From NCBI RefSeq assembly GCF_009914755.1, contig NC_060934.1: DNA of 64,000 nt. One strand, written 5' to 3'. Position numbers and translations under genes: made by a program. This document shows, in pieces, positions 4,440-9,425 of this stretch (its first letter is position 1; every line of letters begins with the position of its first letter). Source of the stretch: the human T2T-CHM13v2.0 reference genome, Homo sapiens. The notes below the pieces were generated by a model, which saw only the letters and a list, made by a program, of their open reading frames with translations, was not told the origin of the DNA and ran no database searches.

Positions 4440-5408
4440 CTGTGGGAAGAAAAAAAAGGAGATGGATTAGTTTGGGGAAGGTATCCATTTTTTTAAATGG
4501 GTGTGCACTGCAGATTACCAACTTATATTAACTGGCTACTGCAGGCAGACCTAAAGAAGAGGGGTGTACTATGCTTTACTAATAGAAATACCTCTTTGCT
4601 GGGGGAGGGGAGTGCTTCTGAATAGAAATTACCCACTCTGAGTTACAGCTTTAGTGGCATATTAATGGGGATTTAAATTTACAGTAAAAACAAAAACAAA
4701 AACAAAAACAAACCTATTCCAATTATGACAAATCTATTTTTTTTTAAAACCTATCTTAGATAGACCATCTCCCTACGATAAGATGGCAGAACAGAATGTC
4801 AGGAGGAGAGGTTTGGTCTGAAGAGGGTTATCTGTCCAGGAGACGCTTTATCCCCAAAGCAATGCGCTTCAGTTTGCTGTGCGCAGCAGAGCACCTGTTG
4901 GGGGGAGAAAAGTAGAGCACCTAGAAAGTCCATGAACAAATTCCAGCAGCAAAAAAACTTCCTATTTTGTTCATATTTTCAGCAATGGACAATTCTTTCA
5001 AGCACATTATATTTATAAAATAATTGGATAAATATCCAAAAGCTCTTTCACCATTTATTGGCATAATTACTATCTTTTGTTCATGGAGCTTCCACTGGCA
5101 GACAAGCATGCGCGCATTGTGCATTGCGGGCGCAGATTAAAATGCTGTGCGACCTGCAAAGAAACAATGTGAAGTGTATACCTAGAGCCGCTGCGCTTCG
5201 CAGGCGCGGGGGGGATTGGCAGCATCTCCTTCAGAAATTACTGTGAAAGAGGAGGAAAATTTGATTTAAAAATCCAGCTATGTAACTAAATTGAATTTGG
5301 GACTAGAAAGCCTTCGGCAGACCAATCCTTCCAGCCATCTGATGCGCAACATAAGGTTTCTCATAAAACAAAGAAAATGTCAATTCAGTTGTGAATTCAT
5401 ATTGATAC

Positions 5409-5494
5409 CTGGAACTCTCCTGCTAGACCACCTCTAAAGGCCCAGGGTTCTTGGTCTCCAATTAAGAATTGTGCTGAAGAATGACTACGACACC
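5409..5494 (-). CDS. OGA: OGA exon 11 ([28 protein letters not shown]), 86 nt
   Basis: caacag|GGTGT...CCAG|gtatca; not in the ORF track, translated by hand; cumulative CDS 2070. Confidence 0.95.
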
Positions 5495-7210
5495 CTGTTG
5501 AGATCAGATCCAAGCGGAGAACGTTACGAGAAAGGGGATTTCCTGGGGTCTCAAATGTCCAACAAACTGACAAACACTTCGTGGAAATAACTCTCTAACA
5601 ATAATCAGGGTTTCAGGGCAAGGCTATGATAATAATTATTATTTTTTAAAATGTTAACGGCATTTCAATACTAATGTTCCTTCCTCCAATTAATGAATAA
5701 TCAGTATTATCAGTTCTACTCTTTAATTACTGGAAGGAAAGTAAGTCCCAAGTTTGTCTGAGTCAACTTTATATATTCCCTAGATATTATACAAATCAAG
5801 CTAGCTGCTTGCTCTGTCATAAAATTATAGTAACTATTAACTAAAATGACTGATAATTAGACACTTTATTATCACAGCCCATGAAGGAATTCAACCTGTC
5901 TGAAGTCACATTTTACATTTTGAGGAAGGGTACAGGTAAGGGAAAAGGGCGGGGGAGAAGGATTAATCTTGTCAGAAAACTAAGGTCAGTAGAATAAAAT
6001 ACAAGAAATTAAGTTGACAAAATGAAACATAATGAGAAAAATTTTTTTGGACAAAAACAATTCAAAATCAGACTTGGCTAATAATACCAGTCTGACAGAT
6101 TCTGAGAACTAAGGAGAGCCAATTGATGTTATTTTGCCCAGAGCTAAATATACTTTTCTTAAAAGTATGACAGTATCTGGTTCCTCTGACCAGCCATTAT
6201 AATAATCTTTGCAATACACTGAACATACACATGGAATACAGAAGTCTCTATTTAAGGTCACCAGTTAACTAACTTAATAGGCAATAACGCTAGCTAACAG
6301 TAAGACATAAAGGCAAATGTTTGGAGGCCAAATCAAAATCACTTGCCTAGTCTTCTGACAAGATAAAGCAGCGCAATATAGTTCTTTTCCATTGGAAGAC
6401 AGCATTCTACCTCCTGTTCAAGTTAACAGTCTCATCAGTACAAATATAGTGTGCTAGTCAGACAGTCCCAAAGCAAACCAATTTTTTGTTAACAATTCAG
6501 GCCCATTAAGAGTTTGTATCTGGTTTGTCATTTTTCAAGGGTAGGGGTACTTTTAAAAAACATAAAATGTAGTATTTGTAAAATAAATATGAAACAGGGT
6601 CAAAATTTAGACTATACGAGAACCTGTCCCATTCCGTAACTCAGTGTAATTTACACTGCAGGAAAAAAACTATACCTCTCAAACTTTAAGATCAGCCAAT
6701 TTCCCCTACCCCCTACTTTGAGACTACAACATAACTAGCACTTCCAACTATTACAATAAAAAGCTGCATGTACGAAGAGCTGTGTAAATGAAAACATGGT
6801 TAATGCCTCAGTCGCTGCGCAAACGTGACTTCAGTTCATGTCTACCGCCCTTAAATCTACCTGAGCTACCTCACAGATAGAACCTTGCAATTTAAACTAA
6901 TTAATCATGACGCGCTGTGAACATCTGCCGCTGTCCATCCAATAGTAGTAGACACTTGTGCTGAGGATTCTCCCATCTGTACACAATGGGGAAGAAGATA
7001 ATAGAAGTCATTAGTAATCAAAAGTACTGCATAGCCACATTGTTTAAAGGACTGAATGCCAGCTGGACTGGAGAGAGGAGGAAAAGGAAGGGTTCCAATC
7101 AGTAAACCCCCTGAAATTACTACAGAACCAAGAAAATACTCTCCCTGTCGTGAGCTTTTGTAAAGCTATGTGGATATGAAGATAATTATTTAAAACTTCT
7201 AAGATGTTAT

Positions 7211-7384
7211 AAGGGGTGTCCAATCTTTTGGCTTCCCTGGGCCACACTGGAAGAACTGTCTTGGGCCACACATAAAATACACTAATGATAGTTGATGAGC
7301 TTAAAAAAAATAAAAAATAAAAAAACTCACAATGTTTTAAGAAAGTTTACAAACTTGTGTTGAGCCACAGGCTGGACAAGCTTG
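7211..7384 (+). mobile_element. MER30-like hAT DNA transposon
   Basis: ggggtgtccaatcttttggcttccctgggccaca ... ggacaagcttg ends. Confidence 0.8.
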
Positions 7385-7777
7385 CTGTAAGAGCTTGAGA
7401 TTGTGTAAGAGGTATCTATATAATTTTGGAAAGCTACCACCATAAATGCTCAGTGCAGAGATAAACCCTGAGAAGAGAAAGAAACAATACTGTGTATCAT
7501 TAAGAATTTAACTTTTAATAATTCTTAAATTAAAAACTGAATATCAAATGTTTTCTGTAATACATTTCAAGCTCAATAATCCAGATTTCAGGTTCAAAAT
7601 TCCTAAGGGCCTTAGAAACTTAAGTTTAAATCCCTATAAGAATGAATTATAAGAACCTGAGCAGAAACCTGGAAGGCAAATGTTGTCATCCAGCAACCAA
7701 TATTGAGGTCTCTTGAGCCTAAGGGTAGATGTCTCCCATGTACAGGAGCTATACAGAGCCTCCCCCCAGCCCCACAA

Positions 7778-8383
7778 GATGAAGTCTCGCTCTGTCACCC
7801 AGGCTGGAGTGCAGTGACACAATCTCGGCTCACTGCAACCTCCACCTCCTGGGTTCAAGTGATTCTTCTGCCTCAGCCTCCCAAGCAGCTGGGACTACAA
7901 GCACATGCCACCACGCCCAGCTAATTTTTGTATTTTTAGTAGAAATGGGGTTTCACCATATTGGCCAGGCTGGTCTCAAACTCCTGACCTTGTGGTCTGC
8001 CCGCCTAGGCCTCCCTAAGTGCTGGGACTACAGGTTTGAGCCGCTGCGCACGGTCAGTATTTCCTTTATTTATTTATTTATTTTGAGATGGAGTCTCCCT
8101 CTATCGCCCAGGCTGGAGTGCAATGGTGTGATCTCAGCTCACTGCAACCTCTGCCTCCTGAGTTCAAGCAATTCTCCTGCCTCAGCCTCTCAAGTAGCTG
8201 GGATTACAGGCATGCGCCACCACGCCTGGCTAATTTTTGTATTTTTTTAGTAGAGATAGGGTTTCACCATGCTGGTCTCATGCTGGTTTTCACCAGGCTG
8301 GTCTCGAACTCCTGATCTCAAGTGATCCACCCACCTCAGCCACCAAGAGCGCTGGGATTACAGGGGTGAGCAACCGCGCCCGA
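7778..8383 (-). mobile_element. Two tandem Alus in OGA intron 10
   Basis: Alu consensus on the reverse strand. Confidence 0.9.
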
Positions 8384-9425
8384 AGCTATACAGAGCCTTT
8401 TAACATGAGGTCAAAATACTCTCTTCTACCTGTTATTACAGCAATCCAAAAAAAGTTATCTATTTTCAAATTAACAATCTGAGACTCTACTTTTAGTAGC
8501 TAATTAGTTGTATCACAGGGAAACTTTTTTTTTTTTTTTTTAAATATTTAAGAGCTCAAAGGTATACAGGCAGAAAGTGGAAAATCTCACTACTACTTTT
8601 TATTCTAAGCTCACGGTGTTTCAGATATCTATTTCACAACCAAGACCATGAAACCCATCATAGTATTTGTGACTACTATGAAAACTATGACATGTCAGTC
8701 AGCCTTGCTGCCTGCTGTGTGCTGTATATAAGTCCATTACATATTCCTTATAGCTGGATTGAAAACCTGAAAATGAAATGAAGTCCCTAGAGAAACTTGG
8801 CCATGCTGGTGCTTTTTACCAAGTTTGACAATTTAAAAAAAAAAAATCAGTGTTCAAAGGAGACATACAAAAGTCCATTTAATGTAGCAGAGATGTTTAG
8901 GGGATTACAATTTCTATCCCCTGGTAAAACCAATACTTGGTAGAAGGATAAAGAAAAAGCCACGTGAAATAATACTGAATAGCACCAGAATAGCCTTACA
9001 CTAAAGCTCGCATGCGCACAGGGCTGGGAGGATGGCTTCCTCTTGCCAGGCCCTTTAGGTCATTTCAGCAATTGTTCTGTTAAACATAGCATTAATGTTA
9101 TCAAGACACAGCAAGCAGCAGAAAGCTTGTGGAGTCACATTTCATAGTGTCTCATCTCCAAATCAGATAAAAGTGGTATACAGGGTTCCATCCAGAAAGC
9201 ATTCAGTCAGAGCAAGTTAAAGTCAGTACTTTCTAACATACTTTTAAGATACTTATGCTGAATTAGCCCAAGGGAGAAAAATTAATGTGCTTGATGTATT
9301 TACTAAGACTTGCATCTCAAGTCTTCAATAATGCCTATTTTTGAAAGAAACCTAGGCAACGAATTGAAGAGACTTGGAAATGTGCCAATTCCCTAAATGT
9401 TTTTCTCCCTGTGGGATAATTTTTT

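What the first reader, a model, noticed from the sequence alone, without database searches (positions are those of the whole stretch)
4860..9020. GCGC motifs strongly over-represented in AT-rich OGA introns 10-11
Seen outside Alus: GCGC at 4864, 4881, 5110 (GCGCGC), 5130, 5193, 5204, 5344, 6371, 6817, 6912 and 9014, mostly as TGCGC or GCGCA. I noticed only about two in the non-Alu parts of OGA introns 2-9. Gene-body CpGs normally decay, so their survival suggests selection. They cluster around the cryptic exons. Inference: multivalent RNA-binding-protein sites or an RNA structure controlling intron detention. An alternative is NRF1-like DNA sites (CGCATGCGCA at 9009, CGCAGGCGCG at 5199). I recall an ultraconserved element in this gene but cannot confirm its position.
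Basis: partly seen in the sequence, partly recalled or inferred. Interest (0 to 1): 0.75.

Follow-up and report, generated by a model that had tools for sequence, protein, structure and literature searches.

The report
GCGC motif arrays in OGA introns
The two regulated introns around OGA exon 11 carry an unusual excess of the short motif GCGC, and the same excess appears in the regulated intron of the partner gene OGT, giving a testable candidate for the shared control element of sugar-sensing splicing.

Summary
All the listed GCGC sites are there. In non-repeat sequence, OGA introns 10+11 hold 12 GCGC among 40 CpGs. The other OGA introns in the window hold 2 among 93. GCGC is the most enriched of 256 tetramers and exceeds local dinucleotide shuffles.

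These introns are the published O-GlcNAc-responsive detained introns flanking exon 11 (Tan 2020), so the setting is known.

The new result is a replication. In the same genome, OGT intron 4, the other O-GlcNAc-responsive detained intron, has 18 GCGC among 52 CpGs. The rest of the OGT gene body has 2 among 160. Arbitrary background gave 19 of 742. The ARGLU1 and MAT2A controls had one unmasked GCGC each.

In both genes 26 of 30 sites read TGCGC or GCGCA, mostly 11-25 nt apart.

My best reading (about 0.45) is a shared cis element read on the pre-mRNA that controls intron detention. The main rival is arrays of NRF1-type DNA half-sites.

Strand tests and folding tests did not decide between them, and conservation could not be tested here. 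None of the ten literature searches found the motif described.

The parts
5495..9475 (-). OGA intron 10 (detained intron DI-1); holds GCGC sites at 9014, 6912, 6817 and 6371 outside its Alu pair
   Evidence: Exon coordinates come from the hub annotation. The DI identity comes from Tan 2020 passages. Counts are: 3374 non-repeat nt, 24 CpG, 4 GCGC.
5409..5494 (-). OGA exon 11, the regulated central exon. It is 86 nt long, so skipping it shifts the reading frame.
   Evidence: Hub annotation; 86 is not a multiple of 3. Tan 2020 reports the exon-11-skipped NMD isoform. The 5' splice site reads CAG|GUAUCA.
4440..5408 (-). OGA intron 11 (detained intron DI-2); the densest part, with 8 GCGC among 16 CpGs in 969 nt
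   Evidence: no repeats by self-BLAST.
9007..9018 (.). Block F: TGCGCA inside an NRF1-like 12-mer with one mismatch. In the RNA sense it reads GCGCAUGCGA.
6895..6940 (-). Block E2: GCGC at 6912, with neighbouring CpGs at 6911 and 6929
6805..6835 (-). Block E1: TGCGCA at 6816-6821. In the RNA sense it reads UUUGCGCAGCGAC.
6365..6380 (-). Block D: GCGC at 6371. In the RNA sense it reads AUUGCGCU.
5343..5348 (-). Block C: TGCGCA, about 60 nt downstream of exon 11's 5' splice site
5186..5212 (-). Block B2: two GCGC (5204, 5193) in a GC-rich stretch just upstream, in the RNA, of the cryptic 5' splice site
5180..5181 (-). GU of the alternative 5' splice site (CUCUAG|GUAUAC). The 227 nt at 5182-5408 correspond to the published 'sub-DI2'.
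   Evidence: A 227-nt retained piece is reported in PMC12894984 section 10. I mapped it by counting from exon 11.
5103..5135 (-). Block B1: GCGCGC (5110-5115) and GCGC (5130), downstream of a 3'-splice-site-like tract (UUGUUUCUUUGCAG|G, about 5153-5167)
4860..4890 (-). Block A: TGCGCA (4880-4885) and GCGC (4864), 17 nt apart, downstream of a pyrimidine tract followed by CAG|G

Best explanation
The GCGC sites are copies of a short element, most often TGCGC or GCGCA. They are arranged in loose arrays, typically 11-25 nt apart, inside the conserved regulatory sequence of the two detained introns that flank OGA exon 11.

The same arrays occur in the detained intron 4 of OGT. I therefore read them as a shared cis-acting element of the O-GlcNAc feedback circuit. 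In this reading they act on the pre-mRNA as multiple binding sites for one factor, or as short GC helices between copies. They slow or permit splicing next to weak or cryptic splice sites. That sets the balance between intron detention and exon 11 inclusion in OGA, and between detention or poison-exon use and productive splicing in OGT.

Shown here: the excess itself, its specificity to these introns, its replication in OGT, its single-copy nature, and its position next to a published cryptic 5' splice site.

Taken from papers: these introns are conserved and respond to O-GlcNAc.

Inferred: that the motif itself is functional, that it is read on RNA, and that one factor reads both genes.
For: OGA excess:
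- 12 of 40 CpGs against 2 of 93 in the other introns.
- Top tetramer of 256.
- Above local dinucleotide shuffles.

Replication in OGT intron 4:
- 18 of 52 CpGs against 2 of 160 in the rest of the gene body, Fisher p 1e-10 given CpG.
- 18 observed against a shuffle mean of 8.1 in 100-nt blocks; 0 of 1500 shuffles reached 18.

Backgrounds and controls:
- 19 of 742 in arbitrary genome.
- 7 of 241 in the rest of the window.
- About 9-10% in CpG-island-like sequence and 9 of 109 in the OGT promoter island.
- One unmasked GCGC in 16 kb of ARGLU1. One GCGC among 56 CpGs in the MAT2A gene body.

Shared flank: 26 of 30 sites have T before or A after, against 13 of 27 background sites, p=0.0037.

Shared layout: 8 of 12 OGA sites and 13 of 18 OGT sites lie in the intron downstream of the regulated central exon.

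Not a repeat family: both blocks are single copy in the genome.

Link to function:
- OGT array 1 lies inside the 526-nt silencer by coordinates.
- That silencer alone repressed splicing only in the forward orientation, and on its own did not respond to drugs, so further cis sequence is needed.
- OGA block B2 abuts the sub-DI2 5' splice site.

Oriented extensions point the same way in both genes. GCGC-N1-3-GCG is 10 sense to 1 antisense. GUU-N0-4-GCGC is 8 to 0.

Tan 2020 and the 2025 eLife paper state that the cis/trans basis of O-GlcNAc sensing is unknown.
Against: - No conservation test was possible, so selection on the motif itself is not shown.
- The core is a palindrome. UGCGC (16) and GCGCA (19) are about equally common in the RNA sense, as a double-stranded DNA reader would give.
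- The unbiased strand test shows no preference. Shared CpG 8-mers are 16 sense-sense against 15 sense-antisense.
- Cross-trained orientation tests are mostly not significant.
- The oriented patterns do not survive correction for the 34 patterns tried.
- Predicted folding is not unusually stable. Mean z is +0.15 for the 30 OGA windows holding GCGC. Across the seven array segments folded, z ranged from -2.2 to +1.4.
- Long-range complementarity is not above chance.
- In the OGT reporter, the fragment holding three upstream copies was dispensable for retention. The arrays left after silencer deletion did not sustain retention.
- The silencer's activity is attributed in print to the decoy exon's splice sites.
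- No RNA-binding protein for this motif was found.
Confidence: 0.45

Rival explanations
1. The arrays act on DNA. They are clusters of NRF1-type half-sites (TGCGC on either strand), or other CpG-reading sites, forming small intragenic regulatory patches that bind a transcription factor or a methyl-CpG reader. Any effect on splicing would be indirect, for example through polymerase pausing, or there would be none and the patches would serve as an enhancer or cryptic promoter.
For: - The NRF1 DNA-binding domain recognises exactly TGCGC with a T-specific contact, and tolerates spacers of 0-7 bp with 2-14-fold loss (PMC10810270 passages).
- 26 of 30 sites carry that flank on one strand or the other, with no strand preference.
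- Near-canonical sites exist. OGT has a perfect GCGCAGGCGC. OGA 9008 and 5198 are one mismatch off. Both promoters carry such sites: two perfect in OGA (29937, 30241) and one with one mismatch in OGT.
- Part of OGT intron 4 (109 window starts) and a marginal piece of OGA intron 11 (8 window starts) meet minimal CpG-island criteria.
Against: - The canonical 2-bp spacer occurs once among 28 adjacent spacings.
- Matches to the 12-nt NRF1 consensus in the two OGT loci are not above shuffles: 41 of 200 and 25 of 200 shuffles reach the observed count.
- Discrete half-sites gave much lower activity in the TFAM promoter test.
- The GCGC share of CpGs (30-35%) is three to four times that of the genes' own promoter islands.
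- No internal promoter is supported. The mOGT message is the intron-retaining transcript.
- Regulation is reproduced on a plasmid reporter.
- From my own knowledge, not checked here: gene-body CpGs of expressed genes are usually methylated, and NRF1 binding is methylation-sensitive.
Confidence: 0.22
2. The copies work by pairing with each other. UGCGC and GCGCA are mutually complementary, so copies could form short hairpins within an array. Copies could also form bridges between introns 10 and 11 that loop out exon 11 and favour its skipping.
For: - Both arms occur in near-equal numbers.
- The predicted fold of OGT array 1 pairs its outer copies, z=-1.97. An upstream OGT block has z=-2.18.
- Blocks F (about 9014-9034) and C (about 5326-5349) can form about 18 bp in two helices around the shared UGCGCA. 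The duplex z was -3.6 and P=0.01 in 200 shuffles.
Against: - Three OGA and two OGT array segments fold no better than shuffles.
- The sliding-window mean z is +0.15 where GCGC is present.
- The F-C pair was 1 of 28 pairs tested. No long-range complement in the introns reaches significance by BLAST.
- There is no covariation data.
Confidence: 0.12
3. The motif itself has no function. The introns are deeply conserved for other reasons, such as decoy splice sites and other binding sites. CpGs survive as passengers, and the GCGC context reflects ancestral local composition or chance.
For: - Conservation of these introns is reported.
- With 30-nt block shuffles the excess is modest: 12 against 6.8, P=0.0105, in OGA, and 18 against 12.4, P=0.018, in OGT.
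- The sites are clustered, so the effective sample is small.
Against: - The same rare context is enriched independently in two unlinked genes that share one regulatory circuit.
- The same T/A flank is present in both.
- It is absent from two other regulated retained-intron genes.
- The background share is about 2.6-3%.
Confidence: 0.18

Closest known systems
OGT intron-4 intronic splicing silencer / decoy exon (Park 2017; Parra 2018; Govindan and Conrad 2025)
   Same: It lies in an O-GlcNAc-responsive, conserved detained intron flanking a small central exon with weak or cryptic splice sites. OGT intron 4 carries the same T/A-flanked GCGC arrays. Four copies fall inside the 526-nt silencer by its coordinates.
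   Different: In OGT the central exon is a poison or decoy exon, whereas in OGA it is coding exon 11, so detention has the opposite outcome. The silencer's activity is ascribed in print to the decoy's splice sites, not to GCGC. No cis element has been mapped in OGA in any paper I read.
Clusters of short binding motifs for splicing regulators (for example MBNL YGCY sites in the MBNL1 ultraconserved region, PMC7901844; NOVA YCAY and RBFOX GCAUG clusters, which I recall and did not check here)
   Same: Several copies of a 4-6-nt word, tens of nt apart, in conserved introns next to a regulated exon.
   Different: This word contains CpG and is a palindrome. No cognate protein is known, and strand specificity is not shown.
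NRF1 binding sites (GCGCATGCGC; half-site TGCGC; PMC10810270)
   Same: The half-site is identical, including the T flank. There are a few near-full sites.
   Different: Spacing is variable, mostly 11-25 nt, rather than a 2-bp spacer. The setting is intronic and AT-rich, not a promoter island.
MAT2A detained intron with repeated METTL16 hairpins (metabolite-sensing splicing; named in the Tan 2020 discussion)
   Same: An enzyme of a metabolic pathway controls its own level through a detained intron and a repeated conserved RNA element.
   Different: From recall: the MAT2A elements sit in the 3' UTR and have a different sequence. The MAT2A gene body has 1 GCGC among 56 CpGs.
Ultraconserved-element-linked unproductive splicing (SR protein genes, ARGLU1)
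   Same: Conserved intronic sequence coupled to an NMD isoform. The Mgea5 exon-skipping NMD isoform is reported in PMC3446288.
   Different: The ARGLU1 control shows no GCGC array. The 397-nt ultraconserved element is reported for OGT, not OGA.

Membership tests
O-GlcNAc-responsive detained introns of OGA (DI-1/DI-2, Tan 2020) | The two introns flank exon 11, and skipping exon 11 shifts the reading frame | tested here: met
   Introns 5495-9475 and 4440-5408 flank exon 5409-5494 (hub annotation). The exon is 86 nt, not a multiple of 3. The paper's passages describe the same arrangement.
O-GlcNAc-responsive detained introns of OGA (DI-1/DI-2, Tan 2020) | High vertebrate conservation and a response to OGT/OGA inhibitors | not testable with these tools
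   Stated in Tan 2020 passages. No alignments or expression data were available here.
Multivalent splicing-regulator motif cluster | Several copies of one short word, clustered beyond chance, next to a regulated exon | tested here: met
   OGA; OGT.
Multivalent splicing-regulator motif cluster | The motif is oriented with the transcript (strand-specific) | tested here: inconclusive
   GCGC-N1-3-GCG is 10 sense to 1 antisense and GUU-N0-4-GCGC is 8 to 0, but neither is significant after 34 tests. Shared 8-mers are 16 against 15. The orientation test is mostly not significant.
Multivalent splicing-regulator motif cluster | A known cognate RNA-binding protein | not tested
   No CLIP data here. The literature searches named none. 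My memory of GC-rich preferences for RBM4 or FUS is recall only.
NRF1 binding site | Two GCGC half-sites separated by 2 bp | tested here: not met
   One of 28 adjacent spacings equals 6. OGA has only one-mismatch sites, at 9008 and 5198. The 12-nt NRF1 consensus (up to 2 mismatches) in the two OGT loci is not above shuffles.
NRF1 binding site | A T-flanked half-site, TGCGC | tested here: met
   26 of 30 sites on one strand or the other; half-site definition.
NRF1 binding site | Occupancy in cells and unmethylated CpGs | not testable with these tools
   No ChIP or methylation data.
CpG island | At least 200 bp with GC of at least 0.5 and CpG observed/expected of at least 0.6 | tested here: inconclusive
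   In OGA only 8 window starts (5035-5079) qualify, at GC of about 0.50 (highest in the scan). In OGT intron 4, 109 window starts (20177-20297 in my joined coordinates) qualify.
Interspersed repeat (Alu or other) | Multiple similar copies in the window or the genome | tested here: not met
   There is no self-BLAST hit in 4440-7776. OGA 4840-5360 and the OGT block each match only themselves in the genome.
Known structured RNA family (Rfam) | A match to a covariance model | tested here: not met
   Only Alu-derived matches at 7774-8232.
Ultraconserved element (at least 200 nt identical in human, mouse and rat) | Perfect three-species identity over at least 200 nt | not testable with these tools
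   The papers I read place the 397-nt element in OGT. None places one in OGA.
Decoy-exon type intron-retention element | Cryptic splice sites inside the retained intron that are used at a low level | tested here: met
   The published 227-nt sub-DI2 maps to 5182-5408 with GU at 5181-5180. Whether it is needed for retention has not been tested.

The most novel reading that the evidence does not exclude
The T/A-flanked GCGC arrays are the common sensor element of the O-GlcNAc feedback loop. A single O-GlcNAc-sensitive factor, or an RNA conformation it controls, reads the same arrays in OGT intron 4 and in OGA introns 10-11. This would explain why these two genes alone respond within minutes to changes in O-GlcNAc, with opposite outcomes set by the nature of the central exon.
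Probability: 0.3. Interest if true: 0.9.

Novelty: new variant of a known kind. Interest (0 to 1): 0.72.

Why it matters
OGT and OGA set the level of a protein modification found on thousands of proteins, and they hold each other in balance through detained introns.

The papers read here say plainly that the sequence features and factors that make these two introns sense O-GlcNAc are unknown. A short motif that is rare elsewhere but arrayed in both introns gives a concrete handle. It can be mutated, used as bait for proteins, blocked with antisense oligonucleotides, and traced through vertebrate evolution.

If the DNA reading is right instead, it would point to an unrecognised transcription-factor or methylation input into the same introns.

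Tried and rejected
- Rfam scan of 4300-9700: only Alu-derived hits.
- Folding of the GCGC blocks and a sliding-window z-score scan: no general excess stability.
- All-pairs duplex scan of the introns: timed out. I replaced it with a BLAST scan for inverted complements, which found nothing significant.
- Pairwise duplex test of 8 blocks: 3 of 28 pairs at P of 0.01 or below (C-F, B2-C, C-E1). I kept these only as a lead.
- Blocks A and B are not duplicates of each other.
- Direct-repeat search within the introns: only an 8-mer is shared between GCGC blocks.
- Repeat-family origin: rejected.
- Canonical NRF1 dimer sites as the general explanation: rejected on spacing.
- An internal mOGT promoter as the reason for the OGT array next to the mOGT start codon: not supported, because the message is the intron-retaining transcript.
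- Genome-wide triple pattern (TGCGCA, TGCGCA, GCGCA within 30-nt gaps): 128 forward and 123 reverse matches, against 199 and 195 for the reversed control. This shows rarity but no family. The listing was cut off before the X chromosome.
- The Park 2017 supplement, which holds the lamprey alignment, could not be read. Whether the arrays fall in the deeply conserved part is therefore open.
- The RBNS preprint text names no GCGC-binding protein.

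
Full report
**What is there**

The window is human chr10 and OGA runs on the minus strand. By the hub's exon table, exon 10 is 9476-9650, exon 11 is 5409-5494 and exon 12 is 4335-4439. Intron 10 is therefore 5495-9475 and intron 11 is 4440-5408.

Four further GCGC lie in two tandem Alus at 7777-8383.

**Is it more than chance?**

I masked multi-copy sequence by self-BLAST of the window.

| Non-repeat sequence | nt | CpG | GCGC |
|---|---|---|---|
| OGA introns 10+11 | 4343 | 40 | 12 |
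| All other OGA introns in the window | 12223 | 93 | 2 (24358, 29305) |

- Fisher p is 5.5e-6 per nucleotide and 8.2e-6 given the CpG count. Without intron 1 the values are 1.05e-5 and 1.5e-3.
- Shuffles that keep dinucleotide content within local blocks gave means of 6.8 (30-nt blocks, P=0.0105), 5.2 (50 nt, P=0.001) and 3.7 (100 nt, 0 of 2000 shuffles reached 12), against the 12 observed.
- In an unbiased comparison of all tetramers, read in the RNA sense, GCGC ranked first. It scored 12 against 1, Bonferroni p 4.7e-4. GCGCA scored 7 against 0.
- Elsewhere in the window, 7 of 241 non-repeat CpGs at local GC below 0.55 sit in GCGC. In island-like sequence the share is about 9-10%.
- In 200 kb taken at arbitrary fixed coordinates of the same genome the share is 19 of 742. 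None of 925 500-nt windows with GC below 0.5 had 3 or more GCGC, whereas OGA has 8 in 481 nt.

**What these introns are**

Passages of Tan et al. 2020 (PMC7261177) describe exactly this arrangement.
- Exon 11 is flanked by two detained introns, DI-1 and DI-2.
- They respond quickly to OGT and OGA inhibitors.
- Skipping exon 11 gives an NMD substrate.

The exon is 86 nt, so skipping shifts the frame. An Mgea5 exon-skipping NMD isoform is also reported in PMC3446288.

The same papers state that the cis and trans basis of the O-GlcNAc response is unknown.

A 2026 paper (PMC12894984, section 10) reports a cryptic 5' splice site that retains 227 nt of DI-2. Counting from exon 11, that is 5182-5408, with GU at 5181-5180 (CUCUAG|GUAUAC). 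The GC-rich block holding GCGC at 5204 and 5193 lies directly upstream of this site in the RNA.

My two searches for one in OGA found none.

The window's own genome could be searched. A Pfam search placed OGT on contig C23, and I fetched the gene.
- Exon 4 and exon 5 were found by translation.
- The 153-nt decoy exon was recognised by its two 3' and two 5' splice sites. These reproduce the four published lengths of 143, 146, 150 and 153 nt.
- Intron 4 is 3272 nt and has no repeats by BLAST.
- It holds 52 CpGs, of which 18 are GCGC. The rest of the gene body (22482 non-repeat nt, exons included) holds 160 CpGs, of which 2 are GCGC. Fisher p is 1e-10 given CpG and 1e-14 per nt.
- Local shuffles give a mean of 8.1 in 100-nt blocks (0 of 1500 reached 18) and 12.4 in 30-nt blocks (P=0.018).
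- The OGT promoter island has 9 GCGC among 109 CpGs.

This was an a priori replication in an unlinked gene of the same circuit, and it succeeded.

**Controls**
- ARGLU1, another gene with a conserved retained intron, has one unmasked GCGC in 16 kb. I did not map its ultraconserved element. I assume it lies between the two exon matches that the fetched stretch spans.
- The MAT2A gene body, including its detained intron, has 1 GCGC among 56 CpGs.
- OGA 4840-5360 and OGT's first 370 nt of arrays each match only themselves in the genome, so neither belongs to a repeat family.
- Genome-wide, a triple pattern (TGCGCA, TGCGCA, GCGCA within 30-nt gaps) has 128 forward and 123 reverse matches in 3.1 Gb, fewer than its reversed control at 199 and 195. 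Such arrays are rare and there is no large family.

**Anatomy of the element**

I took the 30 sites together, in the RNA sense.
- The base before GCGC is U in 16 sites.
- The base after GCGC is A in 19 sites.
- 26 of 30 sites have at least one of these flanks, against 13 of 27 background GCGC (p=0.0037).
- Neighbouring copies are mostly 11-25 nt apart. In OGT the spacings include 19, 11, 13, then 21, 23, 15, then 6, 24, 14. In OGA they include 11, 17 and 18.
- In both genes most copies lie in the intron downstream of the regulated central exon: 8 of 12 in OGA and 13 of 18 in OGT.
- By the coordinates in Park 2017 (intron nt 1771-2297), the first OGT array of four copies lies inside the 526-nt silencer. 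This holds whether numbering starts at the intron or at exon 4.

**RNA or DNA?**

This is not settled.

For an RNA reading:
- The arrays sit in exactly the two introns that are regulated after transcription.
- Regulation is reproduced on a plasmid reporter, and the silencer works only in the forward orientation.
- Two oriented extensions point the same way in both genes, which lie on opposite strands. GCGC-N1-3-GCG is 6:1 in OGT and 4:0 in OGA. GUU-N0-4-GCGC is 5:0 in OGT and 3:0 in OGA.

Against an RNA reading:
- Those two patterns were the top two of the 34 tried and do not survive correction.
- Shared CpG-containing 8-mers are 16 sense-sense against 15 sense-antisense.
- Cross-trained orientation tests are mostly not significant.
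- The core and its flanks are symmetric.
- The NRF1 structure paper (PMC10810270) shows that one NRF1 DNA-binding domain reads TGCGC with a T-specific contact, which is the flank seen here.

Against NRF1 as the general answer:
- The preferred 2-bp spacer appears once among 28 adjacent spacings.
- Matches to the 12-nt NRF1 consensus in the two OGT loci are not above shuffles.
- Discrete half-sites were weak in the TFAM promoter test.
- The mOGT start codon, about 15-60 nt downstream of one OGT array, is served by the intron-retaining transcript, not by an internal promoter.

Near-canonical sites do exist. These are OGT GCGCAGGCGC, OGA 9008 and 5198 with one mismatch each, and sites in both promoters.

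**Structure**
- Predicted folding is not unusually stable where GCGC occurs. In OGA the mean z is +0.15 over 30 windows, against -0.27 over the 110 windows without GCGC.
- Across the seven array segments folded, z ranged from -2.2 to +1.4.
- The 141-nt core of intron 11 has z=+1.0.
- Block F (intron 10) and block C (intron 11) could pair over about 18 bp around their shared UGCGCA, which would loop out exon 11. This was 1 of 28 pairs tested. BLAST finds no significant inverted complement in the introns.

**Evidence from the OGT reporter that limits the claim**
- The fragment carrying three upstream copies was dispensable for retention.
- After silencer deletion the remaining arrays did not keep the intron retained.
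- The silencer alone was not drug-responsive, so additional cis sequence is needed for regulation. That leaves room for the arrays but does not show a role for them.
- Later work credits the decoy exon's splice sites.

**Verdict**

The excess is real, specific, and shared by the two genes of the O-GlcNAc feedback loop.
- My best reading is a shared cis element read on the pre-mRNA (0.45).
- The rivals are NRF1-type or other DNA sites (0.22), a passenger of conservation (0.18) and RNA-RNA pairing (0.12).

In ten full-text searches, and in the passages and sections read of ten papers, I found no description of this motif in either gene. Supplements that could bear on it, such as the Park 2017 lamprey alignment, could not be read. 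bioRxiv supplements were closed.

Conservation, protein binding, methylation and mutational effect remain untested.

Noticed in passing
L006:8750-9170 and L007:20-1000 (OGT intron 4, contig C23 of the same genome): There are 18 GCGC among 52 CpGs, in four arrays plus scattered copies. Most read TGCGC or GCGCA. The first array lies inside the published 526-nt silencer.
   Followed up: yes
window 7747-7761 and 8384-8398: A perfect 15-nt direct repeat brackets the tandem Alu pair at 7777-8383. It looks like a target-site duplication of one insertion event.
   Followed up: no
window 5963-5982 and 6348-6367: A 20-nt inverted repeat, 90% complementary and 365 nt apart, in intron 10. The right arm ends just before the GCGC at 6371. 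It could be an RNA stem or the ends of an old transposon.
   Followed up: no
window 5326-5349 and 9014-9034: Intron 11 block C and intron 10 block F are complementary over about 12 nt (one mismatch) plus the shared TGCGCA. Pairing would loop out exon 11. It was 1 of 28 pairs tested.
   Followed up: partly
window 5179-5187 (minus strand) and L007:784-792: The same 9-mer, CUCUAGGUA, a 5'-splice-site-like word, follows a GCGC copy in both OGA (the sub-DI2 site) and OGT intron 4. It occurs once in the whole window. Its significance was not assessed.
   Followed up: partly
window 29937-29946 and 30241-30250: Two perfect GCGC-NN-GCGC (NRF1-type) sites in the OGA / KCNIP2-AS1 promoter island. The OGT promoter has a one-mismatch site identical to the OGA intron-10 site at 9008.
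   Followed up: no
window 5515-5528: Three CpGs sit in the polypyrimidine and branch-point region upstream of exon 11, including a CGUAAC branch-point-like word. They are not in GCGC context.
   Followed up: no
window 4911-4922 and 4885-4896: Two copies of AGGUGCUCU(A/G)CU in the RNA sense, 26 nt apart. Each resembles a splice junction (AG|GU). They lie just upstream of block A.
   Followed up: no
window 5409-6976 and 5409-7467 (RefSeq exons of other transcripts): These 'exons' end at exon 11's 5' splice site and begin inside intron 10, with no promoter-like sequence upstream. They look like partial copies of transcripts that retain DI-1 after DI-2 removal, the species Tan 2020 describes.
   Followed up: partly
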